Source of the DNA: Eledone cirrhosa
Taxonomy: Eukaryota
Assembly: GCA_964016885.1 (NCBI GenBank)
Contig: OZ024757.1
Location: 8,184,001 to 8,248,000 of the forward strand
DNA length: 64,000 nt
Direction: 5' to 3'
The first letter of the stretch is position 1; each line of letters opens with the position of its first letter. The notes beneath the pieces are model-generated. The model was not told the DNA's origin. It saw nothing but the letters and a program-made list of their open reading frames with translations, and searched no databases. The position numbers were made by a program, and so were the translations under genes. Positions 21,872 through 58,585 of the stretch are shown piece after piece.

Positions 21872-21925
<54 letters not shown>

Positions 21926-21972
21926 ACCCTAACCAAGTTCTCTCTGGATTTGGGGGTCTTTGTATTTATTAT

Positions 21973-22012
<40 letters not shown>

Positions 22013-22283
22013 ATTTTGGGGTCTTTGTATTTATTATTACTATATATATATATATATATACCACCCTAACCAAGTCCTCTCTGGATTTTGGGGTCTTTGT
22101 ATTTATTATTACTATATATATATATATATATATATATGGATTTTGGTGTCTTTGTATTTATTATTACTATATATATATATATATATATACCACCATAACC
22201 AAGTCCTCTATGGATTTTGGTGTCTTTGTATTTATTATTACTATATATATATATACCACCCTAACCAAGTCCTCTCTGGATTT
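21702..22283. repeat. Minisatellite: ~52-bp unit separated by variable (TA)n
   Basis: ccaccctaaccaagtcctctctggattttggggtctttgtatttattattac(ta)n, about 8 full or partial units. Confidence 0.93.
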
Positions 22284-22286
22284 TTG

Positions 22287-22604
22287 AAAATTGACTGGCT
22301 CCAACTCAGGATCCGATACTCCATTATTTCCTAAATTTCAGCTCCGCAGCTCTGTTATTATATTAATTAATTTATTTTATAGTTGTAAATCATATTTTTA
22401 TATGTTACACTCTAAGAATTAACTAAGTGAAATAGCGTAAAAATAAAGGCTTCGTTGGTTTAAGCTATTTTTATAAAGGATGCCACAGAATGTACGATAT
22501 ATAATGATTACAATATTCTTTAGCAACAACTCTAGTCCCACACTTTTGAAGGTTTATTATAACATTCTGTGGAATTTTTGAGCTTGCGCATTTTTCATGT
22601 CTAG
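22287..22604. repeat. Direct duplicate of 21363-21680
   Basis: Near-identical ~320-bp block. Confidence 0.93.
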
Positions 22605-22654
22605 TATATATATGTTTCTATGTCTTTTTTTCTTCTTTTCTTATATAAATAATA

Positions 22655-34300: not shown

Positions 34301-35870
34301 CCTAGCCCGTCAGCATTCATCTCCTCAGTGGCCGTATCTCTGTTCCAGGTATTATTTATCTCAGTATTCAGATCATTGTCTGCTTCGGGTGGTTCCTCCG
34401 TTCTCAGGACCTCCTCACCTTCATTTCCCGCCGGCTCGCTTGTCTGGCATACTACACCCGCCATCTCCAAGCCATTCTCTCTGCTCAGTTCCTCCAGTTA
34501 CAGCTCGCTTATCCACCCATTAGTTCTTATTACCCGAGCCTGCCCGGCCAATTTTTGTTCATCTAATTTAAATAAACCAATCTCGTTCCAGATGTTATGC
34601 ATCCGTCTCCTGTAGCCCCTCTCCTTGGGGTTACTTTTCAGGTAGCATTGCATAACAGTTCTATTCAATTCTTTCGTCCAGTTGGTTCTGGCCCCTTTCC
34701 TTCTTCTTCTTCCTCCAACATCAGCAGTATTTGGTTGACAGTCAGGTTCCTGCTGCTGAGCCAGGGGGCACCTGTTGGGTGAGAGTCTGTCACATGACGT
34801 TCTAGTCTCCATTTCACCGTTATTCGAACTGTTTATGTTCGATATTTAAACACTCTTATCGAGGATTGGCGAATGTATGTTTACATAGCCATCTGTGGAT
34901 CCGCCATCCCACTTGGCCCTTGTGTGGCATTATCACCACGCTGTATACGGACACACATAAACAAACAAACACACGGGCAGAAAGGGCCCCAAAAATGAAT
35001 AAGCATAAGTTTCATTGTAATGTAGTATTCGAATGTCTGACTTAGTTTTTGTTTTTTAAGTTTTACTTTTCCCCCCCTCTTCTCTGTCCGTCCGCCTGCT
35101 TCTCTCTTCATTCTTATTTTCTTTACGTTTTTGGGGTGTCTTTTTTTGTTTTTGTTTTTCTCTGTTTGTTTTTCTTGTTTTTTGCTGTTGTTGCTGTGCT
35201 GCTTTTGTTGTTTGTTTTTTCTTTTTTCTTTTGAGTCTATCTATATATTTTGATGCCTTCCTCTTTGTTAGTAGTAGGAATTCTATAATGTGGAAGTGGC
35301 AGCCAGCAGAGACTGGCGGCGTTGGCGATACTGAGACAGTGGTGGTGGTGGTGTCGATACCGAGGCAGTGGTGGCGGTGATGCGACCGTATTACTGTAGT
35401 GATGGTGCTGTAGCGGTGGCAGCAGCAGTGAAGGAGTCAAGGGGTGGTGGCGGCGGTGATGGGATAGTGGTGGTAATGATGGCCGTAGTGAGCGGTGGCG
35501 GTGAAGGTGAAAATGCTGTTGTGTTTAGTGTACACAGATGATGGGGTGGGTGGTGTATCTAGTTTCTGGTGTTGGTGAGTTTAGCTGTCCTATATAGTGT
35601 ATCCAGAGGAGAGGAGGGGGGGGGGTTCTTCTTCTTCCATTTATAGCCATTTTTTTTGGATATACAGTGTACAATACAAAGTTGAATATTTGAATATTTG
35701 AGCCTTATAACAATATATTTTGGGTCCGAATTTTTTTGGGGCTCAAGCCGGGTGCTTTACGTAGCATTTGTACTAAGAGTTGTTATTTCACAAATGATTT
35801 AAATATGTTAAAAATTCAAAACTTACGGGAGCGATTTCATGACCTCCGTCACCTCGTGCGTCTTCTTCGT
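31343..35870 (-). mobile_element. Dong-A, full-length young copy (~4.5 kb)
   Basis: Complete leader, ORF and 3'UTR bounded by (ATT)n. Confidence 0.96.
31420..34812 (-). CDS. R4/Dong RT-CCHC-RLE polyprotein (~1130 codons) with a single in-frame stop at 34498-34500
   Basis: ORFs 34498-34812 and 31420-34470 are in the same frame; other copies have Glu (ELELEEL) at the stop position. Confidence 0.92.
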
Positions 35871-35877
35871 CTTATTC

Positions 35878-35919
<42 letters not shown>

Positions 35920-35920
<1 letters not shown>

Positions 35921-38900
35921 AGTTGCATTTATCTTGCTTTATGTTCATACGAGTTATCACCAAGTCACAACCAGTGCCCTCAAGAGACAACAAGGTACGC
36001 CATGTTCAAGAAAGAACATACATACTCACACATGCATCTTTAGTGTTTAGACTTGTGATGTACTTATATTGACAGAATCTTCCTTAGTATATGGGCAGTT
36101 CCCATTAGTACTCTCTTTTGTATTTCTCCTATACGCGGGTTTCCTGGGATTTGCGATAAGTAATCATTAGACCCCTTAGGTATCATTCCGAGAGCGCCTA
36201 CAACTACTGGTATTCTTTTAGTTCTCAATTTCCACATTTTTCCAATTTCTATCTCCAGGTCCTTATACTTGCTCAATTTTTAAAATGTTTTTATAGATAC
36301 ATTCTTGTCTATTGGAACAGACATATCAATTAGCAGGCATACCCTCTTTTTAAAGTCCTTCAATATTATATCAGGTCTATTTGCATCTATTTTTCGGTCT
36401 GTATGGATGCTAAAGTTCCACAAGATTGAGATGTGATCTTTTTCAAGTATGGGAGGTGGTTGATGCTCCCACCAATTCTTTTGATGGGGCAGGTCAAAAT
36501 GCTTACACATTATCCAATGTATGTATTGTGCAGCTCTGTCATGCCTGTTTAGGTATTTGGTTGGAGCTATAGGACTGCACATTGAAATTACATGGTCAAT
36601 GCTCTCTGGTTGTTTTTTGCATACACGGCATAATGGGCTGCACCCATTTTTTTATTATGTTGGCTTGGTAATTTTTTGTTGGCAGACACTGATCTTGTGC
36701 TGATATAATCAGTCCTTCAGTCTCCGATTTCAGTCCAGAGGATGCCAACCACTGATGGGTTAAAGTTTTGTCAACATCAGGATTGTTAGCTCGCTCTGCG
36801 TATTTTCCATATAGAGGCTTTTCTTGCCATTTCTTAGCCAGTTTCTGTAGCAGTTCTTTCTTTGCAGTTACTTTTACCTGCTTTGCTTTTTCTGTGTTTT
36901 CCATTTCACCAGTAAATGGGACTTCTGAAATTTGTAGTCCATTACTGTATCTTTGTGCATCTTTTGTAATGGAATATGATCTTTTAATGCTTTCGTGTTT
37001 CAAAACGAGTTTGATCATCCAATCATGTGATTCCCTTAGATATGTAGATAATCCAATTGTTGCAGTTTTCAACGCAATGTCTAGCTGGATTGACCCACGT
37101 CCTCCTTCTTTCCTAGGGAGGTATATTCTATCTATATCTGCCTTATGGTGATGATTCTGTGCATGGTTAAGAATTTTCGAATTTTTGTATCGAGCCTACG
37201 GATCTCTGTGCTTGACCAGTTGATGACATTGTAACTGTAGGTTACTACTGGTATGGCAAGCGTGTTTATGGCATCGATCCTATTCCTTGCATTCAATTCC
37301 GTTCTTAAGATTGTTCTTACTCTGCGGTAACATTCCTTCCTTATCCTTTCCCACATTGTCGAGTGCTTGATTCCGTCACCTTCACAAACACCTAGATATT
37401 TGTAAGTTTTTTCTTGATCAAGTTCTCTTATCACGTTCCCCCGATCAAGATTAATGTCTGAACTCTTCAGCAGCTTTCCTCTGGTGAACGTTGCTTTGGC
37501 GCATTTATCTAGTCCAAACTCCATTTTAATGTCATCACTGAACTGCTTCACAGTGGATAATAGCCCTTGCAATTGTTCATCATTTTTTGCAAATAGTTTC
37601 AGGTCATCCATGTAGAACAGGTGATTAATGGTTTTGTCATAGACTTTATATCCATGTTTTGTCTCATTGGGCATTTTACTTAATGGTATAAGTGCCATGC
37701 AGAATAAAAGCGGTGATAAAGAGTCACCCTGAAAAATTCCACAATTAATATTAACTTCTCCAGCTTCCAGTGATTTTGTTTCACTATTCAAACGGAGTGG
37801 CGTTTTCCATGTCTTCATACTGAATGACAAAAACCTCCTGACAACGGGTGATATTTTGAAAATCTCTAAACATTTTTCAATCCAACTGTGTGGCAAACTA
37901 TCGAATGCTTTTTTATAATCTATCCAAGCAATCGATAGATTTTTGTGTCTATTATGACAATCTTCCAGTATCATTTTGTTAACCAGAAGCTGATCCTTAC
38001 CGCCATATGAGCCTCGTTTACACCCTTTCTGCTCAATGGGAAATAGGTCATTTATTATCAGGTGGTCATATGTGTATTCAGTTAGGACTGATGTTAAAAT
38101 TGTATACATTGTGGTCAAGCAAGTTATCGGTCTGTAATTTTGGGGATTGTTTGTTTCATCATTCTTCGGAAGGAGGAATGTAATGCCGTTAACTAGCCAT
38201 GATGGTATCTTTTCTGGCTCCTTAACTATTTCATTGTAAAGTTGGGCTAACAGCTCATTAGACTCAGTGAGGGTATTTATCCGAAAGTTTTTTATTTTGT
38301 CTTTTCCTGGGGATTTCCATTTGCTGGTTTTTCTTAGAGCCAAGCGCAACTGTTCAACTGTTATATTTTCCCATATTTGTTCCTCAAGGTGAGCTGTATC
38401 TTTCATTTGTCTGTCTATCCATGGGGCATGTATGTTATGAACTTTTTCTTCGGCCCAGAACTTTTCCCAGAATTCTTGCACTTCCTCCATGGGTGGTATT
38501 GATTTAGCAGTTATTGTTGACTTACCAATTTTTCAGTAGAAGTTTCTTTGGTTGTTTTTGAACATATTATTGTCCTTATAGAATCTAGATCGTTTTTCAA
38601 GGCGCCTGATACGAGCAGCTTTGGCCGACACTTTTTGCTTGATTATTTCTATCAGCATGTCTATGTCACATGTTGATTTTATACTGTACTTTTTTTTCAA
38701 TTTTCTAAGTTTAGTTTGTTTAACATGTTCACCTACTTTATAGTTTGTTAAAATTTCTATGTCAGATCGGAGAAGGTTTATTTGGCGATTGATGTTCTCT
38801 TGCCAAGTATATTTCTTGTGGGAATTCCTTTGTTTTTTCATTTTCACTCCACATAAGTGAGTGGTGACTTTAGCCGATGCATAATAGAGATGATTTAAAT

Positions 38901-39875
38901 CAGTAATGTTTAGTTTGTTTGTGATGATAATGTTTTTGAGAATTATGTTAGTCTTGTGTATTATCTTTTGGTTCTGTTTGGAGTTCTGGATCTTAGGGAG
39001 GGTGTCTCGTTGCCCCATGTCAGATTCTTTCATTTTCATCCATTCGATCATAATTTCATCCTTCAAGTTGGCAAGTTCATTCTCATTCATCTCTTTATCT
39101 TTTACGATCTTATTATTTTCATTTGGAGTATCATCCTGAGCATGCACTCCCTCCACTTTTCGCTCCTTTCTTTAATTTGTTCTGTTGCCAGTGATTCCGC
39201 CCCAACCCTGGGATTCGAAGTGTTACAGTTTACCTCGTTTTCACTGACATATGCTTCATTTTCCCTTCGCTGACTTTGTGCTACTAGCTTGATCTGATCA
39301 ATTTCTATATCAGTTAGTAACTTTTTTCTTACAATATTTCTTCGTATATTGGCTAGTTTGTTACTGTCAATATAGCCTCTGTTTTCGGGATGTTTCTTTT
39401 TTCAGTTGATATATGTTTGTTCTGTATTCGATGTATTTGATGGGTAGTACATGGCAGTGTAGAAAGCCTCAAGGACTTCTTTATTATCTTCCCTTGACCA
39501 TTTTTCTCTCTTTTTCTTTGGATTTCTTGGTGGTGAGCATGGAGGGCCAACAGTAGGAGTATTCCGGTTATGGGAGGTCTCCAGCTCCGAAGTGATGGGA
39601 AGGTTTGAACCATTAGCTGATTTTTCGAACCCAGTCTGGTTCCTCTCTGAGGGACGCGGCCCTTTTTTACCCGGGTGACGGCCGATGCGGTATGAGATTT
39701 TATCATTAGACATTTTCTTTATTTTGTCGCGTTTTATCCTTATCCGCCAAGGGGTAATCATTTCGTGTTACCACTTCTAGAACGAGTGTCAACCAAGACT
39801 AGAGGGGTCGTTCTCCCCTAGAGACATGGCTATTCCCCGCCGGCCGCCATCCCGGTATTTCTTGGTCACGGGGTT

Positions 39876-39909
<34 letters not shown>

Positions 39910-40745
39910 AAATTGTTATTATCATGAGTGGTTCCTTAATGTGAGCATTGCGTGGCTTAAGAATGAAATTATTAATAATTGTCTCCACTCCAGGCACAAG
40001 GCCAGCAATCACCCAGTGCATTACAATAATATAATATACTTTTTGTTGTAGTTGGCTGTTATTGTTGTTGGCTATGCCGGTGGTGGTGCCGGGGCTTTTT
40101 ATATTGTTGGTGAGGAAGGGGTGAGCCAGCAGTCCCATAATTGTTGATGTAGACGTTTGGCCGTGGCAAGGTCACCAAGTCAGTCTATTTATATCTTTTG
40201 CTAGCCTCTCTCTTGTCTAGTGCTACCGTCACCTTCCCTTTTCTCTCTCAAGTTAACAGGGGAATAGTGTCAGTAGCATTGAATGAGTGGTGGCGGCGAT
40301 GATGGATGTGGTGGGGTGGTGGCAGCGGTGGTGTTGTGGTTACTGATATAGTATCTATGAGTTTGTGTTCGTATGTTTAATATATATTTTCATTATATTT
40401 TGTGTTGACATATTCCCGTAAAATTTGAATTAAACATTTTTTAAAATTTGAGACAATAATACTAGTAATTATTATTATGATGCTGGTGAAATTATATTTA
40501 GTGTGATGGGATAGGTAGTGTATCAAGTGTATCAAGTTCCTGGTGTAGGTGAAATTGAAATTGCCGCTGTTCTATATAGTGTAGACAGGGTGTTTTGTTC
40601 CATTTATAACCATTTTCTTTTTTTAATACAAAATATATAATACAAAATTGAATATTTGAGCGATACAACAATATAATATGGATTCGAAACTTTATGGGAC
40701 CTCATTCCGTGCCTTTATGCAACATTTGTGCTAAGAATAGTTCTT
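35920..40745 (-). mobile_element. Dong-B, near full-length degenerate copy (ORF pieces 36064-39761) plus upstream leader
   Basis: N-terminal REKWSREDNKEVLEAFY through RT and RLE with frameshifts; whether 39880-40745 belongs to the same element is inferred. Confidence 0.88.
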
Positions 40746-40765
40746 TCTTATTGTTCTTTCTTCTT

Positions 40766-40825
<60 letters not shown>

Positions 40826-40834
40826 GTTATTGTT

Positions 40835-42549
40835 ATTCCTTGAATCTCAGTCATTGATGTTGGTTAACTGGAAAGTCCGTTGGATTGAATATCAAGCCAC
40901 TACCTGCAGCCTCAGATATTCAGGACGTATCGGAGGGTTCTTGCCGTTCCAAGCAAGCATGCCTTTTGAAGCGTTCCAAAAAGCGTGAAGGGGCCGATTT
41001 TCTTTAACCATCCCTGGAAACCTTTGGAGATAGTCCCCAGTGCGCCTATGACAATCGGGATCACTTTGACTTCATGGCAGTTCCAAATCCTTTTCACCTC
41101 CCACTTTAGGTCCTGGTATCGGTTAATTTTCTCCCTCTCCTTCTCTTGCACTCTCGTGTCGAACGGGCAGGCCACATCCACAATCAGGCACGATCTTTTT
41201 TCTTTGTCCACAACCACCAGGTCAGGTCTATTGTGTTCCAGTTTTTTGTCCGTCTGTATCCTAAAATCCCACAGCACCTTCACCTGACTGTTCTCCATCA
41301 CCGCCTCTGGCCTATGCTCATACCATTTCTCAGAATGTGGTAGATTGTTTACTTTGCACAGGTGCCAGTGGATCACCCTGCCCATCACATCGTGTCTCCA
41401 GCCCTTATAGTGGGTCTGGGCTAGGTGTTTACACTCGGACACAATGTGAGCCACAGTCTCCTCTCTCTCTCCACAGATCCTGCACAGTGGGCTAGCCTCC
41501 TCCTTGTAGATATGGTGCTTCAACCACTTCGTTTTGAGGGCCTGCTCCTGCGCAGCCATTAGCATTCCTTCTGTAGCCTTTTTGAGGTCTCCTCTTCTCA
41601 ACCAGTTCCATGTCTGTGGATCTCTAAATTCAGTTTTCTCAAAGAAGGTACTATGAAGGGATTTTCCCTTAAGGCTGCTCTTCCTCCTTGATGTTATTTC
41701 CTCCTTGGGTATCCCCTGGCCTACTGTCCCCTCCTTCAGTACAGCTCTGAGCATTGGCTCCTTACTATAGGTCACGTATTTGTATAGGTTGTTTTTCTCC
41801 ATCTGAACACTGTCCTCTATGCTGATAAGACCTCTTCCACCCTCAGATCTCCTTAGGTAGAGTCTATCGACATCACTCCTCTTGTGGAACATGTTGTAGA
41901 TAGTCAATAGCTTCCTAGTCTTCCTATCCATTTCTTTTTGTTCAGCAACATTCCATCTCAGAATTCCCGCACTGTACCTAATAATAGACACAGCTCGGGA
42001 ATTTACTGCGCTTATGGCATTTCTGCTGTTCAGATGTGACTTCAATACGCTCCTTACTCTCCGAATGTATTCAGTTCTTAACAATTCCTTCATTTTTTTG
42101 TTCTTTATGCCATCAGCCTCCAGAACGCCCAAATACTTGTATCCTTCCTCAGAGTCAATTTCCTTTATCATCTCACCTGTTGGTATCTGGATCCCGTTAC
42201 TTCTGCTCAACCTACCCCTCCTCATCACAATGACTCCACATTTACCAATACCAAACTGCATACATATATCACTGCTGAAAATACGGACAGTGTCAACAAG
42301 CACATCCAACTCCTTCTCACTTTTCCCGAAGAGCTTAAGATCGTCCATGAAGAGGAGGTGATTGATGGTAAGCTCTCCCCTTCCCAACTTGTATCCTGCT
42401 CTCACTTTTCGCAGCATAATGGTCAAGGGCATCAGGGCAAGGACAAACAACAGAGGGGACAGGCTATCTCCCTGGAAGATACCTCTCTTGATCTTCACGC
42501 TTCCCAAGGATACTCCAGTTGATGTCAACTCTGTCTCCCAGACAGAGTT
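40835..42549 (-). mobile_element. Dong-A, 5'-truncated, intact frame (40912-42528)
   Basis: Nearly identical to copy 31343. Confidence 0.96.
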
Positions 42550-42573
42550 ATTATTATTATTATTGTTATTGTT

Positions 42574-45130
42574 ATTCCTTGAATCTCAGTCATTGATGTT
42601 GGTTAACTGGAAAGTCCGTTGGATTGAATATCAAGCCACTACCTGCAGCCTCAGATATTCAGGACGTATCGGAGGGTTCTTGCCGTTCCAAGCAAGCATG
42701 CCTTTTGAAGCGTTCCGAAAAGCGTGAAGGGGCCGATTTTCTTTAACCATCCCTGGAAACCTTTGGAGATAGTCCCCAGTGCGCCTATGACAATCGGGAT
42801 CACTTTGACTTCATGGCAGTTCCAAATCCTTTTCACCTCCCACTTTAGGTCCTGGTATCGGTTAATTTTCTCCCTCTCCTTCTCTTGCACTCTCGTGTCG
42901 AACGGGCAGGCCACATCCACAATCAGGCACGATCTTTTTTCTTTGTCCACAACCACCAGGTCAGGTCTATTGTGTTCCAGTTTTTTGTCCGTCTGTATCC
43001 TAAAATCCCACAGCACCTTCACCTGATTGTTCTCCATCACCGCCTCTGGCCTATGCTCATACCATTTCTCAGAATGTGGTAGATTGTTTACTTTGCACAG
43101 GTGCCAGTGGATCACCCTGCCCATCACATCGTGTCTCCAGCCCTTATAGTGGGTCTGGGCTAGGTGTTTACACTCGGACACAATGTGAGCCACAGTCTCC
43201 TCTCTCTCTCCACAGATCCTGCACAGTGGGCTAGCCTCCTCCTTGTAGATATGGTGCTTCAACCACTTCGTTTTGAGGGCCTGCTCCTGCGCAGCCATTA
43301 GCATTCCTTCTGTAGCCTTTTTGAGGTCTCCTCTTCTCAACCAGTTCCATGTCTGTGGATCTCTAAATTCAGTTTTCTCAAAGAAGGTACTATGAAGGGA
43401 TTTTCCCTTAAGGCTGCTCTTCCTCCTTGATGTTATTTCCTCCTTGGGTATCCCCTGGCCTACTCTCCCCTCCTTCAGTACAGCTCTGAGCATTGGCTCC
43501 TTACTATAGGTCACGTATTTGTATAGGTTGTTTTTCTCCATCTGAACACAGTCCTCTATGCTGATAAGACCTCTTCCACCCTCAGATCTCCTTAGGTAGA
43601 GTCTATCGACATCACTCCTCTTGTGGAACATGTTGTAGATAGTCAATAGCTTCCTAGTCTTCCTATCCATTTCTTTTTGTTCAGCAACATTCCATCTCAG
43701 AATTCCCGCACTGTACCTAATAATAGACACAGCTCGGGAATTTACTGCGCTTATGGCATTTCTGCTGTTCAGATGTGACTTCAATACGCTCCTTACTCTC
43801 CGAATGTATTCAGTTCTTAACAATTCCTTCATTTTTTTGTTCTTTATGCCATCAGCCTCCAGAACGCCCAAATACTTGTATCCTTCCTCAGAGTCAATTT
43901 CCTTTATCATCTCACCTGTTGGTATCTGGATCCCGTTACTTCTGCTCAACCTACCCCTCCTCATCACAATGACTCCACATTTACCAATACCAAACTGCAT
44001 ACATATATCACTGCTGAAAATACGGACAGTGTCAACAAGCACATCCAACTCCTTCTCACTTTTCCCGAAGAGCTTAAGATCGTCCATGAAGAGGAGGTGA
44101 TTGATGGTAAGCTCTCCCCTTCCCAACTTGTATCCTGCTCTCACTTTTCGCAGCATAATGGTCAAGGGCATCAGGGCAAGGACAAACAACAGAGGGGACA
44201 GGCTATCTCCCTGGAAGATACCTCTCTTGATCTTCACGCTTCCCAAGGATACTCCAGTTGATGTCAACTCTGTCTCCCAGGACCCCATACTCCTGCCCAG
44301 CAACTCTCTGATGTTATCTGCCACCCTGAAGATCTCCAGGCTTTTGGTGATCCAGGAATGAGGCACCATGTCAAATGCCTTTCTGTAGTCTATCCATCCC
44401 ATGGCAAGATCAGTGTGTCTCCTCCTGCAATTCCCCATTACCATCTTATCAATAAGCAACTGGTCCTTTGTACCACGTGACTTCTTTCGGCATCCTTTCT
44501 GTTCGTCCGGCAACAAGTTGTTTGTGTGGAGGTGATGGTAGATTTCCTCAGACACAATGCTCGTCAACAGTTTCCACATTACGGGCAGACATGTGATAGG
44601 TCTATAGTTGGTAACATCATTACCCTTGATTCGGTCTTTCATTATCAGAACTGTGGTACCTTTTGTCAACCACTCTGGCACCTCACCCGACACCAAGCAG
44701 TCATTGAACATGGCCGTCAGCTTCGGGTGGAGGGATGTTAAATGTTTAATCCAATACCCCTGCACACCATCTGGGCCTGGTGATTTCCAGTTGGTTAGTT
44801 TTTTGGCTTGCCCCTTAAGAGTTTCAACTGTGATACTCAAATCAGTCTGTTGCTGTGCCTGCTCACCGATCTCCCTCTGTACTGTCTCAATCCACCCTGC
44901 CTGGGCATTGTGTCTAACATCCTGCTCCCATATTCCTCTCCAGAATGTTTTAGCTTGTTCCGCCCCAGGGATCAAGTCGGTGCCTCTTTCTTTCCCCTCA
45001 AGCTGTCCAAACAGCATCTTCTGGTTGTTGTCGAACATGCGGTTCTGTTTATACTGACTGACTCTGTTCTCGTATCGCCTGATTTTGGCACTCTTTGCTA
45101 CAATGCGTTGCTTCAATTCCTCTATGATAA

Positions 45131-45134
<4 letters not shown>
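42574..45134 (-). mobile_element. Dong-A, 5'-truncated, intact 821-aa frame (42651-45116)
   Basis: Complete RT+CCHC+RLE without disruption. Confidence 0.96.
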
Positions 45135-45191
<57 letters not shown>

Positions 45192-45399
45192 GGCGACCTA
45201 CGTAGTAAATCGTATCATCGTGAGCTCCGCAAAGGTTTGTTATTTCCGTTTGTTAAAAATTGTCATTTATGGAAATTTTTCATTGTTAACTGTTTATAAG
45301 CGCACATACATTGTTTTCCGAAAAGGACACCCAAAAAGATTGGGGCCTTGTGCCCAAAATTTAAACTTTTATTATTATCAAAAAATTTCTTTGAAAAAA

Positions 45400-47390
45400 A
45401 TGGCTAATTCACCTCTGCACCAAGCAGCTGAAAGCCTTCCTCACAAAATAACACCTCACACCGACACCACCATTGTAAATGTTACTACGTTTGCCAACAC
45501 AAAAAAAAATATAAGCACTAGCAATATTTTAAATTTGTCTCAGGCAGACATACATTTCCCGCCATTACCAATGACTGCAGGTGTTAAAGCCTCCACCACC
45601 ACCACCACCACCACCACCACCACCACCACCACCACCGCGACAACCACCACTACCACCACCACCGCGACAACAGAAACAAAAGAAGAAAAAAATAAATTAA
45701 CTCGTGATGTCGAAATGAAATCAAGCAAAATGGACTCTTCCCCACCAAAGACGACTGACGTTACCACCACCACAACTGAAACTAAAATTAATATTAACGA
45801 TAGCAACACCAACAACAATGACATTATAAACCCCCCCCCTCAGTTTCGCCAGAGTAGCAAAACAATTCGAAGCATTTACGGTAACTCAGGAGGATTTAGA
45901 AAATGCATAACAAATGGTAAAGAAAGATGGGTACAGGGTCAACCTCATCCCCCACCTAATAAAATGGAGCATCGGCGCCTATGCACCGTGTCGTATAGAA
46001 CAATAAATGTAAAATCGCGCCGAGTTGAACGGGCATCCGAGTCCCAAATCCAAAAAGCTTTGGGACATGTGTGGGCAAGAAAAACCCACATCAGACGTGG
46101 GCAAAAGTATGGAACAGTGGACGTGTTCTTTGAAACACCAGAGGAGGCTAGAGAACACTCCATGGCCCCATTAAGAAGTGACGACTTCACACTCGTCCCA
46201 AGCTATTGTGGCCAGAGACTCGTAAAGATCAGGGTGACCCACGTTCCACCGGCCATCGAAATTCCCTGGCTAATAGAAGCCAACACAAAGATAATAGCAA
46301 TAGCAAAAGAAAAGCAGGAGAACTGGTGCGGATCTGGGATGGAGCTCCTGATCCAAGCGGACCAAAAAAGCATTGAGGAGATCCCAGAGGTAATAGACCT
46401 CACTGACGGCAGCCACCTCACGGTAATTGGCGAGGGCAGAAGACCTAGGTGTGTCGTTTGTGGTGAAGGAACCCACCTAAGGGCTTTCTGCCCTCAGGCT
46501 AAAAGGTTGAGGCCACCTCTCCAACCCACCCCAGTGACACAACCATCAACACCACCAGTAGCAGAGATGGCAGCAACAACTGTAGCAGCAACAACAGAAG
46601 CAACTATAACAGCAACAACCCCAGCAACAGTAGAAAAACCAACACCACCACCACCACCAGCAAAACCAACACCACCACCACCCAACGCTTCAGAACTAGC
46701 ACCAGCGCCTACACCATCCACCACGCCACAACCAAAACTAACGGCTGTGGAGGATTTTCCACTCCCCGGCCTATCACAACTGGAGACAGATTGTGACGAC
46801 GAGGAGTGGGAAACGTATCCGGAAAAAAAAAAGAAACCAAAAAAGAAAAAATTCTCTTCCTTCCCCCCTCCAAAAACAAAATACAGAGGGAAACAAATAA
46901 ATTAAGAAACAAAAAAGTTAGGACAGATATGCCACCATCCACACCAGCATCACCAACCCCATCAACCCAAACACCAACACCATCACCATCATTAACCCCA
47001 ACACCACCATCACCTACACCACAAAAGTCATCAAAATGCGAAACAGAAACAAACGCACAACAAACGCAAACAAAACAGAACAACCAAAACGATACACACT
47101 ACACAGCATTAAATTTGAACAACAAGCAATTATTACACTACATCTAACACAACACCAGCATCACAGAAAAAGACAACAAAACAACCCCAAAATTCACACC
47201 ACCTCCACACATACAAATCACTCGCATCACACAGAAAACGTACATGACACTAAAACAAAAATTCCCCAAAGACATCGGAGACTTCCGACAAGCACTCTCC
47301 AGGAGGATTTATAAGGACATCCTTCCTGAGGAGGCCACAAGCAGTGAAAAGGATGGAAAAACCGTCCTTCCCCTACGAGAAGTAAGGTAA
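45400..47390 (+). CDS. Tx1 ORF1 (gag-like, CCHC zinc knuckle); frameshifted after ~46830
   Basis: MANSPLHQ start; RCVVCGEGTHLRAFCP knuckle; Thr/Pro-rich linkers; likely true end PLREVR* (Tx1 copy at 51135 has PLRKVR*). Confidence 0.8.
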
Positions 47391-47424
47391 GTGGTCTTTC
47401 CCATCTTTTCCACTCCTTTTCAAC

Positions 47425-49822
47425 ATGACCTCACTCAGAATAGGCAGCATAAATGCGCGTGGCTTGGGGTCGTCATGGAATCAGGGCCACCTGCTCAACG
47501 ACCTCTGGTCACTAAACATAGATGTAGTGGCCATCAGCGAGACCAGAATCTCAGAAGCACAGGCTTTCGCACCGATCTTCGGCGGCTACGATGTGTACGC
47601 ATCTCCAGCCGTCCGGGATCGGGGGGAGGAGTTGCTGTGCTTTTTCGGAGAGGTTTGGATCTTGCCATACGGGCCATCTTCCTGGACACAGAAGGTAAGT
47701 TGGTGGTGCTGGACGTGACCAGCGGAGACGGCCAAGCTTTCAGGTTAGTGGCCGTCTATGCCCCGACAGGAGCAGGGCGGCGTGATTTCTTCCGGCGTCT
47801 GGAGACCTTTCTTGGAACGTCCCGCTCTTTAGTGTTAGTGGGCGACTGGAACGGGATCTTAGATGCACGCTGGGATTGTGTGGGATTAGTGGATAGGGAA
47901 GGAGGGTGCAAGTGTCTCACCAACCTGCTCAGACGTTTTGAACTGTCTGACAGGTACCGAATGGATTTCCCGAATGTACCAATGTGGACTTGCACAAATC
48001 GCATAGGGTCATCCAGATCATATCTAGATAGAGTATTTTGTAGGGAAATAGATAGGTCTAGCATAGGCTGTCCACAATTCAAAATAGTCAGCTACACGGA
48101 CCACGAATTCGTGATCTGTGTGCTTGACTTAGATAGGCTTCATAGGCGAGGACCCGGCTACTGGAAGCTAAACGCGTCCTTACCATCGCGCAAGGCCTAC
48201 AGAGACCGGATTAGCGAACTAGTTAAGCGGGCGTTGACGGAGGCCATCGTCAACATCAAGTGGTGGTTTGCTCTGAAAAGAGCAATTAGAATAGAGTCCA
48301 TTAGGTTTAGTAAGACTTTAGCAATAGAGAAAAATAGAGCAGAGGGAGAATTAGTTAGAAAATTAGATGAGGCGCTTAGCAAAGGCATCGCGACCGACGT
48401 ACTTGCGGCGAAATTGGCCCTTGACCAATTCTTCAATGCAAAGCACGAAGGCTGCGTTGTCAGAGCTAGGGTGCGTGCTCTCAGACACGAGGGGACGAAA
48501 GCCGTTCAATGGGCCCGAGTGGCGGAGGCACGACGTGGCAACAAAGCCACGATCCGGTCTTTGGTGGACCACGACGGGCGCATGCTACTCGATCCCGGGC
48601 AAATGTGTGAAGCTTTTCAGCGACACTTCGCTCAACTGTTCGGGGGCAGTGGCGGGCCGGATCGAGGGATGGACTTTAGTGTCTACCTCGACGGACTGCC
48701 GCGGCTTTCGTCCACTGAGGCGATAACAACCACTGAAGTACGGGATGCAATGACTAGTTGCACAAGGGGTAAATCGCCTGGTTTGGATGGTCTGCCCTAT
48801 GAACTTTACGTACAAATGTCAAACTTGTTCGGAGGCCTTTTGGCGGACGTCTACTGCAACTGGCAACAGAACGGGAGAATTCCCTGCTCTGTGAGCCGAG
48901 GAGCGGTGGCGCTGCTGAGAAAGGATCCGAACAAGGGGGATAACAAAGATATTTTTAGGCCCATAACTCTGCTAAACACAGAGTTCAAGATTTTGGCCAA
49001 GGTGCTAGCAAAGAGGTTGGCGCTTGTCGTTGGTGGTCTGGTGGAAGAGGCACAGACATGCGCCATTCCCGACAGATCCATCCACGACAACCTCCACCTC
49101 ATGCAATACATCGTAGAGAGGGTAGCTAGGGAACCTGGCACGGGTGGGTCTTTGATCAATTTAGATCAGTCGAAAGCCTTCGATAGGGTCGACCATCGTT
49201 ACCTAGAGGCAGTCTTGAGGGCGGCTGGTTTTGGGCCCGTCTTCAGAGGCTGGATCGCTGCCATGCACAACAACATCTGCTCTGTGGTGAGAGTGAACGG
49301 TCACCTTTCGGAACCGTTCAACATCATGCGCTCGGTCCGCCAAGGATGTCCCCTCTCGTCCCTCTTGTACGTATTGACTCTCGAGCCATTACTGCACAAA
49401 CTGGAGACGTTGAGGGGGATCCCGCGCGAACTAGGATGCGGAAGATCCGTGTCAGCATATGCCGACGATGTCACCGTAGGGGTGTCGAACGCCAAACACA
49501 TCGAGGCGATCGGCACTACACTAAGAGAATACGAAGCGGTGACAGGAGCAATGATCAACCAGGAAAAGTCAGTGGGCCTGCAGCTCGGCACCTGGAGAGG
49601 CAGGTCCATGCCGTCCAACAGCGTCGTCGGGCGCTGGACAGACGGACCGGTTAAATTGCTAGGGGTCTGGTTCGGTCCAGACCTCCAGACGGACAAAAAC
49701 TGGGACGAGGTGACGAGCAGGGTGGCTTCTCTCACCCAGAAATGGGCCGAGAGGAAGCTATGCCTGAAAGGTCGAGCGGTGGTGGCTAACGCGTACATCG
49801 CGTCCGTCATCTACTACCGCCT
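47425..49822 (+). CDS. Tx1 ORF2, APE endonuclease + reverse transcriptase (frameshift ~47600-47630; truncated)
   Basis: SINARGL, ISETR, GDWN, YLDRVF, TDH; GKSPGLDGLP, RPITLLN, DQSKAFD, QGCPLS, YADD. Confidence 0.92.
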
Positions 49823-49824
49823 AC

Positions 49825-50820
49825 TAGTGTTTAGACTTGTGATGTACTTATATTGACAGAATCTTCCTTAGTATATGGGCAGTTCCCATTAGTACTATCT
49901 TTTGTATTTCTCCTATACGCGGGTTTCCTGGGATTTGCGATAATTAATCATTAGTCCCCTTTGGTATCATTCCCAGAGCGCCTACAACCACTGGTATTGT
50001 TTTAGTTCTCAATTTCCACATTTTTCCAATTTCTATCTCCATGTCCTTATACTTGCTCAATTTTTCAAATGTTTTTATAGATACATTCTTGTCTATTGGA
50101 ACAGACATATCAATTAACAGGCATACCCTCTTTTTAAAGTCCTTCAATATTATATCAGGTCTATTTGCATCTATTTTTCAGTCTGTTTGGATGCTAAAGT
50201 TCCACAAGATTGAGATGTGATCTTTTTCAAGTATGGGAGGTGGTTGATGCTCCCACCAATTCTTTTGATTGGGCAGGTCAAAATGCTTACACATTATACA
50301 ATGTATGTATTGTGCAGCTCTGTCATGCCTGTTTAGGTATTCGGTTGGAGCTATAGGACTGCACATTGAAATTATATGGTCAATGGTCTCTGGTTGTTTT
50401 TTGCATACAGGGCATAATGGGCTGCACCCATTTTTTATTATGTTGGCTTGGTAATTTTTTGTTGGCAGTCACTGATCTTGTGCTGATATAATCAGTCCTT
50501 CAGTCTCCGATTTCAGTCCAGAGGATGCCAACCACTGATGGGTTAAAGTGTTGTCAACATCAGGATTGTTAGCTCGCTCTGCGTATTTTCCATACAGAGG
50601 CTTTTCTTGCCATTTCTTAGCCAGTTTCTGTAGCAGTTCTTTCTTTGCAGTTACTTTTACCTGCTTTGCTTTTTCTGTGTTTTCCATTTCAGCAGTAAAT
50701 GGGACTTCTGAAATTTGTAGTCCATTACTGTATCTTTGTGCATCTTTTGTAATGGAATATGATCTTTTGATGCTTTCGTGTTTCAAAACGAGTTTGATCA
50801 TCCAATCATGTGATTCCCTT
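49825..50820 (-). mobile_element. Dong-B fragment lacking the extreme 3' end
   Basis: RLE region match; no (ATT)n at left junction. Confidence 0.93.
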
Positions 50821-50837
50821 ATTATTATTATTATTAT

Positions 50838-51077
50838 TTGCATTTATCTTGCTTTATGTTTATACGAGTTATCACCAAGTCACAACCAGTGACCTCAAGA
50901 GACAACAAGGTCCGCCATGTTCAAGAAAGAACATACATATTCACACATGCATCCTTAGTGTTTAGACTTGTGATGTACTTATATTGACAGGATCTTCCTT
51001 AATATATGGGCAGTTCCCATTAGTACTATCTTTTGTATTTCTCCTATACGCGGGTTTCCTGGGATTTGCGATAAGTA

Positions 51078-51079
<2 letters not shown>
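50838..51079 (-). mobile_element. Dong-B short 3' fragment
   Basis: 3'UTR and ORF end between (ATT)n tracts. Confidence 0.93.
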
Positions 51080-51112
<33 letters not shown>

Positions 51113-51134
51113 CATTATTATTATTATTATTATT

Positions 51135-54100
51135 GAATGCTATAGTTGACGGAGGCTCGGCTCTGTAAGGTATTGCAAATTTTGAACGCTATAACAATTG
51201 TAAATTGTTAAAATTTTACCAACTTGTAGACAAAAACACCCTCCTCCTCGTGAGACGGGTCTTTCTGCCTGTTATTTGGCCCTTCGGGGTTAAATAACTG
51301 CTTATTAGGGTTTTGTGCCCAATATTTAATTTAAACAAAAAAAAACAACATGGCTACGAAAAAGAAATTTCATAGGTCACTCCCACTCATTCCGACTTCT
51401 TCTTGCTCAATCGTCACTACAGCAGAGAGAAGATTGTCTCTCTCCCTCCCTTCTTTAAATGTGTCTCTCTCCCTCCCTTCTCTTTCGCAAGCGGCGACAG
51501 AAAAGAAAAGTCTCGTGCAAAGCGTGCAAGATTTCTCCACGACAACAACGACGACGAAACAGGTGTGCGGGAAATAAGAAAACCCATTTCATTCGTCTGA
51601 CGTCAGGAATAATAGCAGTAGCAGCCGTAATAACAACAGCAACAGTGACAATGAAAACAACAGCAGCAGCCGCAACAGCATCAGCAGCAGCATAAACAAC
51701 AACAGCATTAGCAGCAGCAACAACAACAACAACCACAGCAACAGCGGCGGCGGCAGTAGTCGTAGTACCTGCAGCAACAACAAAAGTAACAGCAGCTCAA
51801 AACTCAAAACGCCAACTAACATAAGACTGCTAAAAATAGCACAGAAACAATACACAAACACTAAAACGAAATTCCCCAACGCAGTTGGTGATTTCAGAGA
51901 CCTAGGAGGTACTATCAACCGAAGAGTATATTCGGACATACTCATAGAAGAGCCGATGACCAGTAGAAGGGACGATTCAACGGTCCCTTCACCAGACGAT
52001 CAAGTGAAAAGGGATGTAAAATCCATCCCTCCTCTACGAAAAGTACGGTAAGAGGTCTTTCTCATCTTTTCCACTCTATTTTAAACATGACCTCACTCAG
52101 AATAGGCAGCATAAATGCGCGTGGCCTGGGGTCGTCATGGAAGCAGGTTCACCTGCTCAACGACCTCAGGTTACTAAACATAGATGTAGTAGCTAGGGAA
52201 CCTGGCACGGTTGTGTCCTTGATCAATTTAGATCACTCGAAAGCTTTCGATAGGGTCGACCATCGTTACCTAGCGGCAGTCCTGATGGCGGCTGGCTTTG
52301 GGCCCGTCTTCAGAGGCTGGATCACTGCCATGCACAGCGACATCTGCTCTGTGGTGAGAGTGAACGGTCACCTGTCGGAACCGTTCAACATCATGCGCTC
52401 GGTCCGCCAAGGATGTCCCCTCTCGTCCCTCTTGTACGTAGTGACTCTCGAGTCATTACTGCACAAACTGGAGACGTTGAGGGGCATCCCGCGCGAACTA
52501 GGATGCGGAAGATCCGTGTCAGCATATGCGAACGATGTCACCGTAGTGGTGTCGAACGCCAAACACATCGAGGCGATCGGCACTACACTAAGAGAATACG
52601 AAGCGGTGACAGGAGCAATGATCAACCAGGAAAAGTCAGTGGGCCTGCAGCTCGGCACCTGGAGAGGCAGGTCCATGCCGTCCAACAGCGTCATCGGACG
52701 TTGGACGGACGGACCGGTTCAATTGATAGGGGTCTGGTTCGGTCCGGACCTCCAGACGGACAAAAACTGGGACGAGGTGACGATCAGGGTGGCTTCTCTC
52801 ACACAGAAATGGGCGGAGAGGAAGGTATCCCTTAAAGGTCGAGCGGAGGTGGCTAACGCGTACATCGCGTCTGTCATCTGCTACCGCCTGACCGTCGTAC
52901 CTTGTCCTAAGCCTCGCCTGACTGCGCTGGAGCGTTTGCTCTTTCGCTTTTTGTGGAAGGGACGCGCTCCGATGGTCAGGCGGTCCATCTGTTGTCAACA
53001 CCCGCTACGTGGAGGGCTGGGCATGCCGTGGCTGATGATGCGCAGGCACGCGCTCAGGCTACGACATCTCCACCTCCTCCTCGACGGTGATCAGGTGTGG
53101 TCGCCGTTTGCTAGACACGTTTTTCCCCAGCTCCTTTCCTTGACGGAGCTGCAATCCTGGGTCAAACGAATACCGAGAGGGAGCGCCTGGAGACTGGAAT
53201 CTCTTCAGGCGCTCACACCCCTCGACCAATCGGGCAATGTGATCGGTGGAAACTCCACCTCGGCGTTCTATAGAGGATTAGTGGAGGGGAAGAGCGACGA
53301 CGTACTTGGGGAACCTCTAGGCGTCGACGAAAATTAACTAGCCAATCTCTTCGGAAGAACTTTCGGGCCAGGGCCTATGGACAACTTCCAGAAATCTCTG
53401 GCCAGGCAGTGCTACCGAGGAGCCTTGCCAGTTTGGGATAAACTCTACAGGCATGGAGGTGCCGTCAGCCGGGCATGTCCAAGATGCGCGCAGGGCGACG
53501 AAACCGTCCTGCATGCACTCGTCCAATGTCCGAAAATTGCTGACTTGTGGGTTTATGTCGAACACCTGCTGTCGCGTTTAGGACGGATCCGGCTATCATC
53601 TGAGTCCATCGTAAGGATTGCCCCGCTCTCCTATTTTAGCCGGGAAGGGCAGACAGTTTTTATCTGTCTGGTGGCCATGGCGAAAGAGGAAGTATGGTGG
53701 ACACGTTTGAAAGGGCTGAAGACGAGCACTTACCTCTTCGGTGATGCTCTGATTGACTTTTTCAAATTTCATTTGAAAAGGAAAATCAGAGTAGAGAGGG
53801 AAGTGCTCTCTTCCCAGCATTTTGTTGAAAGATGGGTGAGAGAAGCAAGAATGGCCCGAGTGAATGGGCCTACTCTGAGTATATATCTGTAAATTAAAGG
53901 TGGAAAACTGGGAGACGGCACTTGCCTTGGTGGTCAGGGTCACTGTGGCTTTTTATTGGGATTTCTCCACAAATGTCCCTCCGAAGTCTCCCCCCTATTG
54001 GGGAATTTTTCATTGTTATTTTTTGTTACATCCTCTGTTTTTGTTTTTTACACGCAGAAATGCCCATTTGTACCGTCCTGTATTGTCCTGCACTGTCCTT

Positions 54101-54142
54101 AATGTCTACTTTATGTAAAACCTTGTGGTTAATAAAGAAATC
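51135..54142 (+). mobile_element. Tx1-clade LINE with both ends but internal deletions (non-autonomous)
   Basis: Short degenerate ORF1 (51350-52051); ORF2 jumps from NIDVVA to REPG; C-terminal CPRCAQGDETVLHALVQCP; 3' end aataaagaaatc. Confidence 0.93.
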
Positions 54143-54168
54143 ATTAGTATTATTATTATTATTGTTTT

Positions 54169-57100: not shown

Positions 57101-58585
57101 CAACCGAATCTTGTCTTAGCCCGTCAGCATTCATCTCCTCAGTGGCCGTATCTCTGTTCCAGGTATTATTTATCTCAGCATTCAGATCATTGTCTGCTTC
57201 GGGTGGTTCCTCCGTTCCCTCAACCTCTTCACCTTCATTTCCCTCTGGCTCGTTTGTCTGGCATATTACACCCTCCATCTCCAAGCTAATCTCTCTGCTC
57301 AGTTCCTCCAGTTCCAGCTCGCTTATCCACCCATTAGTTCTTATTACCCGAGCCTGCCCGGCCAATTTTTGTTCATCTAATGTAAATAGACCAATCTCGT
57401 TCCAGATGTTATGCATCCGTCTCCTATAGCCCCTCTCCTTGGGGTTACTTTTCAGGTAACATTGCATAACAGTTCTATTCAATTATTTCGTCAAGTTGGT
57501 TCTGGCCCCTTTCCTTCTTCGTCTTCCTCCACCGTCAGCAGTATCTGGTTGACAGTCAGGTTCCTGCTGCTGAGCCAGGGGGCACCTGTTGGGTGAGAGT
57601 CTGTCACATGACGTTCTAGTCTCCATTTCACCGTTATTCGAACTGTTTAGGTTCGATATTTAAACACTCTTATCGAGGATCGGCGAATGTATGGTTACTT
57701 AGCCATCTGTGGATTCACCGCCGCCGGTGTTTGCGCCGCTCCAATTGGCGCTTGTGTGGCATTATCACCACGCTGTAGACGAACACAAATAAACAAACAA
57801 ACACACAGGCAGAAAAGACCCCAAAAATGAATAAGCATAAGTTTCATTGTAATGTAGTGTTCGAATGTCTGACTTAGTTTCCCCCCCCCCCCCTCTTCTC
57901 TGTCCGTCCGCTTGTTCCTCTCTTCATTCTTATTTTCTTTACGTTTTTTTTTTTTTTTTTTCTCTGTTTGCTTTTGCTGTGCTGCTTTGGTTTTGTTGTT
58001 TGTTTTTTCTTTTTTCTTTTGAGTCTATTTATATATTTTGATGCCTTCCTCTTTTTTAGTAGTAGGGATTCTATAATGTGGTGGCAGCAGCCAGCTGAGA
58101 GATGTGGTTGACAGTAGCGGCGGTAGCGATACTGAGACAGTGGTGGTGGTGATGTCGATACCGAGGCAGTGTTGGTGGTGATGTGATCGTATTACTGTAG
58201 TGATGGTGTTGTAGCGGTGGCAGCAATGAAGGAGTGGTGGCGGCGGTGATGGGATAGTTGTGGTAATGATGGCAGCAGTGAGTGATGGTGGTGAAATTGA
58301 AATGGCTGTTCTATATAGTGTAGACAGAGGAGGGGGGGGGGTCTTCTTCCATTTATAGCCATTTTCTTTTTTGGATATACAATGTACAATACAAAGTTGA
58401 ATATTTGAATATTTGAGCCTTATAACAATATATTTTGGGTCCGAATTTTTGGGGGCTCAAGCCGGATGCTTTACGTAGCATTTGTACTAAGAGTTGTTAT
58501 TTCACAAATGATTTAAATATGTTAAAAATTCAAAACTTACGGGAGCGATTTCATGACCTTCCACCACCTCGTGCGTCTTCTTCCC
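54169..58585 (-). mobile_element. Dong-A, full-length copy with frameshift/stops
   Basis: ORFs 54924-57482 and 54238-54780; leader matches copy 31343. Confidence 0.95.

What the first reader, a model, noticed from the sequence alone, without database searches (positions are those of the whole stretch)
35230..51352. One 5' leader module shared by two divergent Dong families and resembling Tx1 5' ends
Seen: the leader of Dong-A (27130-27936, 35230-35870, 58020-58585) is clearly homologous to 40180-40745 upstream of Dong-B, although the two ORFs are divergent. It has the layout of the Tx1 starts at 45192 and 51135: a 5'-proximal tgacggagg (35851-35843; 51147-51155) and gctc(c/t)..g(t/c)aa motif, then A-run-ATGGCT about 210-220 nt in (35650, 45400, 51350), then Thr/Pro/Ala-type triplet-rich decayed coding sequence. 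Inference: RLE elements captured an internal promoter plus ORF1 stump from an APE/Tx1-type element and passed it between families. Living in the same array would favour such exchange by read-through or template switching. The two Tx1 copies also pair near-identical ORF2 with different leaders.
Basis: partly seen in the sequence, partly recalled or inferred. Interest (0 to 1): 0.7.

Follow-up and report, generated by a model that had tools for sequence, protein, structure and literature searches.

The report
Borrowed front end on Dong retrotransposons
Three full-length copies of one jumping-gene family carry an extra front segment that likely came from an unrelated jumping-gene class and would serve as a borrowed on-switch; a related segment sits before one copy of a second family, where it may be accidental.

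Summary
The shared leader is real. Dong-A1 and the segment before Dong-B match at 72% over 401 nt (E 7e-59), while the two ORFs are about 41% identical as protein. The leader belongs to Dong-A: 3 of 3 full-length copies carry it, with no TAA run between leader and body. Its first ~220 nt are the most Tx1-like sequence in the window (top 3 of ~6,330 windows in a joint scan), though BLAST scoring and nhmmer miss this. New here: an HDV-like ribozyme fold just before the Dong-A ORF likely marks the old 5' end, 870 nt inside the unit; two outside Dong relatives carry an A-box/B-box head instead. Best reading: Dong-A inserted inside a Tx1-type element and now travels with its 5' end; the B association arose separately. 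This is a new variant of known 5' capture (L1 promoter replacement, SVA_F1, R2 template jumps).

The parts
35236..35877 (-). Leader of Dong-A2: ~228-nt Tx1-like 5' segment, A-run and ATG at 35650, then Thr/Pro/His-triplet-rich broken sequence
35007..35235 (-). A-rich linker shared by the three Dong-A copies, absent before Dong-B
34830..35006 (-). Predicted HDV-like ribozyme fold (P1 5 bp, P2 8 bp, P3, P1.1, J4/2), ending 18 nt before the ORF; likely the ancestral 5' end of Dong-A
   Evidence: 2 of 1000 shuffles reach its score; descriptor loosened after one search found nothing
31346..34812 (-). Dong-A2 ORF (1130 codons, one stop at codon 105; RT, CCHC, restriction-like endonuclease motif) and 3' UTR
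27094..27936 (-). Leader of Dong-A1, starting ~30 nt later than A2; closest relative of the B1 leader
26658..27097 (-). 444-bp tandem duplicate of the 3' half of the A1 leader (89% match)
26347..26534 (-). Same HDV-like fold in Dong-A1, with two mismatches in P2
22854..26329 (-). Dong-A1 body (3 stops, 1 frameshift)
58024..58585 (-). Leader of Dong-A3
57645..57838 (-). Same HDV-like fold in Dong-A3, with two mismatches in P2
54163..57626 (-). Dong-A3 body (2 stops, 1 frameshift)
40160..40750 (-). Leader homologue before Dong-B1, lacking the first ~85 nt; preceded by a (GAA)n run (40745-40795) and the (TAA)n tail of a Dong-A copy
39906..40159 (-). Mosaic spacer: ~120 nt of CAA/ACC-rich sequence, a SINE 3' fragment (39959-40024), and a possible Tx1 3'-end relic on the other strand (~39932-39970, marginal)
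39874..39905 (-). A-run of about 30 nt at the junction with Dong-B
35920..39873 (-). Dong-B1, the only full-length Dong-B: ~160-nt 5' UTR with no complete HDV-like fold, ATG at 39713, frameshifted ORF
45192..49822 (+). Tx1-type copy T1: 5' UTR, ORF1 from 45400 (RRM-like plus CCHC), ORF2 with APE and RT, 3' part missing
51135..54147 (+). Tx1-type copy T2: different 5' UTR, short ORF1 without the RRM/CCHC core, ORF2 with a large internal deletion, (ATT)n tail

Best explanation
Dong-A is a composite retrotransposon whose three full-length copies carry an ~870-nt or longer front segment, likely the 5' end of a Tx1-type element and predicted to act as its promoter, ahead of a predicted ribozyme that likely marks the old start. 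Mechanism, step by step. (1) Inferred: an ancestral Dong-A, which began at the ribozyme fold and relied on read-through transcription as silkmoth Dong does, inserted in the same sense into the AAT/AAC-rich ORF1 region of a decayed Tx1-type copy. (2) Inferred: RNA started at the Tx1 5' end, ran through Dong and ended at the Dong tail. (3) Inferred from staggered 5' ends and flanks of different age: the Dong enzyme copied uncleaved RNA of this kind into (TAA)n, so the leader spread with the body. (4) Shown: leader and body have since diverged together (A1 vs A2: leader core 86%, ORF 94-95%), and P2 of the fold is broken in 2 of 3 copies. The leader before Dong-B1 is likely a second, separate association with the same donor family, by insertion next to a relic or by a one-off template jump onto a polyadenylated leader RNA, rather than a module handed from A to B.
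For: Leader on 3 of 3 full-length A copies, with a shared linker and no TAA run between leader and body. 5' starts differ between copies. Not a recent block duplication: the Dong-B copies beside A1 and A2 are 98.4% identical while the leader cores are 85.6%. Joint T1+T2 scan: the three A leader starts are peaks 1-3 of ~6,330 windows (z-sum 9.0, 8.0, 7.6 vs 5.6 next), still 1-3 with the ATG block removed (8.3, 7.3, 7.2 vs 5.2), and 1-3 under strict gaps with the ATG block. With A2 as query the two Tx1 starts are the best 2 of 3,946 windows. Leader-Tx1 scores equal T1-T2 scores under block shuffles. HDV-like fold 18 nt before the ORF, best minus-strand hit of the window, 2 of 1000 shuffles; silkmoth Dong cleaves at its 5' junction (PMC3774820, passages). 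One Tx1 3' end at 17625 reads (AAT)n in sense, so same-sense nesting is possible. B1 keeps donor-like sequence beyond the point where A switches to its linker, and lacks the A linker. Two outside Dong relatives carry a different, A-box/B-box head at their TAA junction (L002, L004).
Against: The Tx1 link is faint. BLAST-type scoring is not significant (33 to 905 of 1000 shuffles reach it); nhmmer gives no Tx1 hit better than E 25; with strict gaps and no ATG block, z falls to 0.7-2.5 and the joint ranks slip to 1, 2, 4, or to 3, 4, 6 for the first 110 nt. The three A leaders count as one observation. No donor element and no protein-level ORF1 match were found. The fold is best preserved in A2, the copy closest to the young truncated copies (99.3-99.5%); if it cleaves well, new copies should lack the leader. 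The descriptor was loosened after a null result, was not checked on a known ribozyme, gave 192 candidates in the window, and scored a site inside Tx1 ORF2 higher (15 vs 13); Rfam found nothing. No transcript data.
Confidence: 0.45

Rival explanations
1. Direct module exchange: the leader moved between Dong-A and Dong-B by template jump or recombination inside shared (TAA)n arrays, and is a regular part of the Dong-B family.
For: B1 has no proper (TAA)n run between leader and body, only two TAA units before the A-run, while 4 of 4 other Dong-B copies with a visible 5' junction abut a TAA run. B1 shows no complete ribozyme fold, so it would need another route to transcription. R2 enzyme jumps onto other RNAs in vivo, and one such 5' extension became the commoner form (PMC3414825, section 8). 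Recently active Dong-R4 insertions in Octopus vulgaris average 4,192 bp (4,732,901 bp over 1,129; PMC13282606 Table 1), longer than Dong-A without leader (3,661 nt) or Dong-B without it (3,954 nt); whether the window is from that species was not tested.
Against: n = 1. B1's leader lacks the motif-bearing 5' end, is equally well read as an outgroup to all A leaders (75-83%), lacks the A linker, and is cut off from the body by a SINE fragment about 10-12% diverged from other copies, whereas the B body is 97-98% identical to other B copies.
Confidence: 0.2
2. The leader is a captured 5' segment but not from Tx1; it resembles Tx1 starts only because short internal promoters and A-rich start-codon contexts look alike in this AT-rich genome.
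For: No significant BLAST, nhmmer or protein match; much of the signal falls when the ATG block is removed and gaps are penalised; T1 alone does not place the leaders in its top 8 on the first 110 nt.
Against: The ranking holds against real genomic windows without the ATG block, for two dissimilar Tx1 queries, at the very 5' end of the unit and on the right strand; the T1-T2 pair, known relatives, score no higher. The window holds few host promoters, so this control is incomplete.
Confidence: 0.2
3. The leader is a passive passenger. Dong-A still depends on read-through and self-cleavage; the leader persists only because uncleaved RNA or DNA-level copying within arrays carries it along.
For: Intact fold in the youngest copy. 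In Drosophila ambigua an R2 with a 5' extension still cleaved only at the old R2 junction in vitro (PMC3414825, section 8). Each A leader follows a Dong-B tail (3 of 3), as repeated blocks would.
Against: 0 of 3 full-length A copies start at the fold; flanking B copies are younger than the leader split; the first 220 nt of the leader are far better kept than the rest, as expected under selection.
Confidence: 0.15

Closest known systems
Dong (Bombyx mori) and the R4 clade of restriction-like-endonuclease retrotransposons
   Same: Single ORF with RT and C-terminal CCHC plus endonuclease motif; sits in (TAA)n; HDV-like fold in the 5' region (silkmoth Dong cleaves at the TAA junction: PMC3774820, passages).
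   Different: The fold lies 870 nt or more inside the mobile unit, behind a foreign leader; 5' UTR about 1,060 nt against about 220 nt in relative L001.
R2 5' extensions by template jump and R2/R1 hybrid SIDEs (PMC3414825; abstract, sections 8 and 9 read)
   Same: Foreign sequence joined 5' of an intact ribozyme-bearing RLE element; RLE and APE clades fused within a shared tandem target.
   Different: There the extension is snRNA or tRNA, and the hybrids are short non-autonomous elements with an RLE head on an APE tail. Here a likely APE-type head sits on a coding RLE body.
SVA_F1 with the MAST2 promoter segment (as cited in PMC4494074, passage)
   Same: A subfamily carries upstream sequence picked up by 5' transduction from a foreign promoter.
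   Different: The donor here is likely another retrotransposon clade, and the recipient is autonomous.
5' UTR replacement and inter-family recombination in L1 and CR1 (PMC3600994, abstract; PMC2881922, passage)
   Same: Near-identical ORF2 behind unlike leaders, which is what T1 and T2 show; frequent recruitment of new 5' ends.
   Different: Those cases are within APE clades. The T1/T2 observation is therefore ordinary; the cross-clade step to Dong is the new part.

Membership tests
R4/Dong clade (Dong-A, Dong-B) | Single long ORF with reverse transcriptase and no APE domain | tested here: met
   A2 1130 codons with one stop; RVT_1 in both families, no Exo_endo_phos; best PDB matches are R2 proteins, E 2e-30
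R4/Dong clade (Dong-A, Dong-B) | C-terminal CCHC knuckle followed by PD-(D/E)xK restriction-like endonuclease motif | tested here: met
   Invariant C, C, H, C and PD...D columns across 22 sequences; also visible in Dong-B; the motif definition is recalled
R4/Dong clade (Dong-A, Dong-B) | Insertion in (TAA)n | tested here: met
   All 6 A copies and all 5 B copies with an intact 3' end finish in (TAA)n
R4/Dong clade (Dong-A, Dong-B) | HDV-like ribozyme at the 5' junction of the element | tested here: inconclusive
   Fold predicted in Dong-A but 870 nt or more inside the unit; none in Dong-B or at leader starts; activity untested
R4/Dong clade (Dong-A, Dong-B) | RT tree places it with named R4/Dong references | not tested
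Relatives found are unnamed; the quick tree (careful search unfinished) only shows A among 59-65% relatives and B outside them on a long branch.
Tx1 clade (T1, T2) | ORF1 with RRM-type and CCHC domains, ORF2 with APE and RT | tested here: met
   T1: Atlas hits zf-CCHC/RRM/ZCCHC3-like at 0.90-0.93, 255 relatives, Exo_endo_phos and RVT_1. T2 has lost the ORF1 core and most of the APE.
Tx1 clade (T1, T2) | RT tree places it with named Tx1 references | not tested
Tx1-type 5' end (the leader) | DNA similarity to Tx1 5' UTRs above background | tested here: met
   Top 3 of ~6,330 windows in the joint scan; weak, and not seen by BLAST scoring or nhmmer
Tx1-type 5' end (the leader) | Translation homologous to a Tx1 ORF1 N-terminus | tested here: inconclusive
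   1 marginal hit (E 0.044) from 150 ORF1 relatives; the true N-termini of T1 and T2 also got none, so the test has no power
Tx1-type 5' end (the leader) | Internal promoter activity | not testable with these tools
   No eukaryotic promoter or transcript tool
Dong-B family carrying the leader | Leader present on other full-length Dong-B copies | not testable with these tools
   One full-length copy in the window; no eukaryotic genome collection; exact leader motif absent from genome contigs
R2/R1-type hybrid SIDE | Short, non-coding, with head and tail from different clades | tested here: not met
   Dong-A keeps its full ORF

The most novel reading that the evidence does not exclude
Dong/R4 elements treat their 5' expression module as interchangeable: a self-cleaving ribozyme in silkmoth, a tRNA-type promoter head in L002/L004, and here a Tx1 promoter that was taken across the RLE/APE divide and then handed between two Dong lineages only 41% alike, with the old ribozyme decaying behind it.
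Probability: 0.25. Interest if true: 0.75.

Novelty: new variant of a known kind. Interest (0 to 1): 0.52.

Why it matters
RLE retrotransposons such as R2 are thought to lack their own promoter and to depend on host read-through plus self-cleavage (PMC2881922, PMC3774820). Elements that target microsatellites have no reliable host transcript, so how they are expressed is open. A coding Dong family with a likely Tx1 promoter in front of a still-visible ribozyme would be a natural snapshot of the switch from one mode to the other, testable with one reporter and one cleavage assay. It could also help explain high recent Dong-R4 activity reported in octopus (PMC13282606), if the window is from that group, which I recall from its SINE and did not test.

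Tried and rejected
BLAST-type local scoring and nhmmer for leader vs Tx1: not significant. tblastx of leaders vs T1 and T2 ORF1: low-complexity matches only. Word-index search with the T1 ORF1 core: 0 of 266 candidates. 150 of the 255 ORF1 relatives were returned and tested against the leaders: one hit at E 0.044, positive controls also blank. Rfam: nothing at gathering level in the window, 3 chance hits in 34700-40900, nothing at the heads of L001 and L004; ARAGORN found no tRNA in 5 of the 8 loci, the 5 that were scanned. Strict HDV descriptor: 0 hits. The idea that leader and Tx1 starts share a ribozyme: rejected, no fold at any of the 6 starts. Exact 23-nt leader motif in genome contigs: 0. 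No leader similarity in the 8 outside loci. Recent block duplication as the source of the three A leaders: rejected. The argument that opposite orientation rules out any Tx1 donor: dropped after one Tx1 end was found in TAA sense. Tx1 3' relic in the B spacer: marginal on its own (28 to 457 of 1000 shuffles). The bacterial promoter scan is not relevant to a eukaryote and was not used. Names and hosts of the protein relatives stayed unknown. Literature searches listed no paper on a Tx1-derived leader on Dong/R4; the library lacks most subscription journals and Repbase reports, so this is weak evidence of novelty.
Full report
Setting. From about 22,780 to the end, the window is a tandem array of retrotransposons joined by (TAA)n runs. 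Two minus-strand families carry a single RT ORF with a C-terminal CCHC and endonuclease motif. Dong-A has 6 copies (3' ends at 22854, 29954, 31346, 40838, 42563, 54163), of which 3 are full length. Dong-B has 7 pieces (22782, 27955, 35920, 49825, 50837, 58601, 61593), of which 1 is full length and 1 is cut by the window end. Two plus-strand elements, T1 (45192) and T2 (51135), have the ORF1 and APE-RT layout of Tx1. The array starts in the tail of another Tx1 3' end at 22760. I recall the scattered 190-bp SINE as octopus-like; this was not tested.

The A/B leader. The segment before Dong-B1 is homologous to the Dong-A leaders: 72% over 401 nt to A1, E 7e-59; core identities are 82.6% to A1, 74.9% to A2 and 77.0% to A3. 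The proteins are 41-44% identical, and Dong-A is closer to unnamed outside proteins (59-65%) than to Dong-B (quick tree only; the relatives were chosen by likeness to A, and 35 of 120 went into the tree). A non-coding stretch cannot stay 83% identical over that distance, so the sharing is recent.

The leader belongs to Dong-A. All 3 full-length copies have leader, A-rich linker, UTR and ORF in one piece with no TAA run. Their 5' starts differ. The Dong-B copies next to A1 and A2 are 98.4% identical while the leader cores are 85.6% and the ORFs 94-95%, which does not fit recent duplication of a B-leader-A block. A2 has one stop in 1130 codons and is 99.3-99.5% identical to two 5'-truncated copies, so the recently active lineage carries the leader.

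Is it Tx1-like? By standard tools, no: 33 to 905 of 1000 shuffles reach the BLAST-type score, and nhmmer gives nothing better than E 25. By gap-lenient global alignment, yes: z 3.6-5.7 for the A leaders, z 2.7-5.4 under shuffles that keep local composition, falling to 0.7-2.5 with strict gaps and the ATG block removed. The known relatives T1 and T2 score in the same range (3.9-4.8 and 1.9-2.3). Real sequence is the better control. With A2 as query the two Tx1 starts are the best 2 of 3,946 windows; with A1 and A3, 2 to 40 windows score as high. Summing T1 and T2 scores over about 6,330 windows puts the three A leader starts first in 3 of 6 settings, and at ranks 1-2-4, 1-3-4 and 3-4-6 in the others. 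The three leaders are one observation, and the window holds few host promoters. I put Tx1 origin at about 0.75-0.8. The 'ORF1 stump' is not shown: 150 of 255 ORF1 relatives were tested and gave one hit at E 0.044, but T1's and T2's own N-termini gave none either.

An older 5' end inside Dong-A. Silkmoth Dong self-cleaves at its TAA junction through an HDV-like ribozyme (PMC3774820, passages and section 16; its structure figure is an image file I could not see). A strict descriptor found nothing. A version loosened along that paper's stated ranges gave 192 candidates in the window; the best on the minus strand is 35006-34830, ending 18 nt before the Dong-A ATG, with an 8-bp perfect P2. 2 of 1000 shuffles of that region reach its score, and A1 and A3 show the same fold with two P2 mismatches. 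A higher-scoring hit lies inside Tx1 ORF2, so the score alone proves little; the position is what counts. If right, everything upstream (871 nt in A2) is an addition.

Dong-B1 is a weaker case. Its leader lacks the first ~85 nt with both motifs and is not Tx1-like by itself. After the point where Dong-A switches to its linker, B1 continues for about 120 nt of CAA/ACC-rich sequence, then a SINE 3' fragment (86-90% over 50 nt to the best other copies), a possible Tx1 tail relic, and an A-run of about 30 nt. The B body is 97-98% identical to other B copies, so it is younger than these inserts. For fusion: no real TAA run at the junction and no complete ribozyme fold. Against: n = 1. The different junctions suggest that A and B each met the same donor family, not that one passed a finished module to the other.

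Orientation. T1, T2 and the Tx1 ends at 22760 and 14235 read (ATT)n in sense, opposite to Dong, so read-through from them would give antisense Dong. One Tx1 end at 17625 reads (AAT)n, so same-sense nesting can happen. Tx1 ORF1 and the leader both contain AAT/AAC runs that resemble the Dong target. Nested insertion followed by transcription from the Tx1 start needs no template switch and is my preferred route; a template jump onto a polyadenylated RNA fits the A-run at B1 (PMC3414825, section 8).

Outside relatives. A scan of genome contigs returned 8 loci labelled as bacterial MAGs but eukaryote-like in sequence; 3 have a usable 5' end. L001 has about 220 nt between (TAA)n and its ATG. L002 and L004 begin at (TAA)n with a shared head bearing A-box and B-box matches at tRNA spacing (0 of 200 shuffles; 2 of 8 loci; the box consensus is recalled), and a second L004 copy starts inside that head. 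None resembles this leader, and none shows an HDV-like fold at its start. Foreign heads on Dong-like elements therefore seem to recur.

T1 and T2. ORF2 is 94.9% identical, the ORF1 C-termini are 44-50% alike as protein, and the 5' UTRs differ. This matches 5' replacement known in L1 and CR1 (PMC3600994 abstract; PMC2881922 passage). T2 is itself internally deleted.

The octopus repeat libraries and Repbase entries could settle the Dong-B question and may already annotate this leader; I could not see them. Metagenome and viral collections stayed unchecked.

Verdict. Observation partly confirmed, interpretation partly supported. A likely Tx1-derived head on a coding Dong family, upstream of a predicted relic ribozyme, is a new variant of known 5' capture. 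Transfer between Dong families remains open. Interest 0.52.

Noticed in passing
L004 515-621 and 5164-5240; L002 1334-1407: Dong relatives begin at (TAA)n with a shared head bearing tRNA-type A-box and B-box matches; one copy is truncated inside the head, so the head seems to move with the element.
   Followed up: partly
L001 130-348: The ~220-nt 5' UTR of this Dong relative looks SINE-like, with a stretch I recall as 5S rRNA-like; Rfam gave no hit.
   Followed up: partly
window 48649-48738 (+): Highest-scoring HDV-like descriptor hit (score 15) lies inside Tx1 ORF2 coding sequence; probably chance.
   Followed up: no
window 17625-18080: Tx1 fragment whose 3' end is on the minus strand and whose remainder is on the plus strand, as in 5'-inverted insertions; it sits tail-to-tail with a SINE.
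   Followed up: partly
window 35815-35830 and 34935-34990 (-): The leader motif contains a splice-donor-like hexamer, and a pyrimidine-rich tract ending in CAG lies before the Dong-A ORF, overlapping the ribozyme fold; splicing could remove the decayed leader. Consensus recalled.
   Followed up: no
window 40745-40795: (GAA)n run at the 5' end of the B1 leader; A2 and A3 leaders start with a short GAAGAAGA. (TTC)n is the target of the Tx1 family Koshi (PMC4494074).
   Followed up: no
window 49822-51134: T1 is cut off by a Dong-B fragment that lacks its own 3' end and any TAA run, followed by a short Dong-B; suggests deletion or recombination within the array.
   Followed up: no
window 22782, 27955, 35920, 61593 vs 50837, 58601: Two Dong-B sub-lineages with different 3' termini (95.9-96.7% between, 97.6-99.2% within).
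   Followed up: partly
window 20711-22620: Local ~225-330-bp direct and inverted duplications (96-98%) around a (TA)n-rich 129-137-bp tandem repeat.
   Followed up: no
P0001: A 1710-aa Dong-like protein that is an in-frame partial duplication of itself, possibly an assembly artefact.
   Followed up: no
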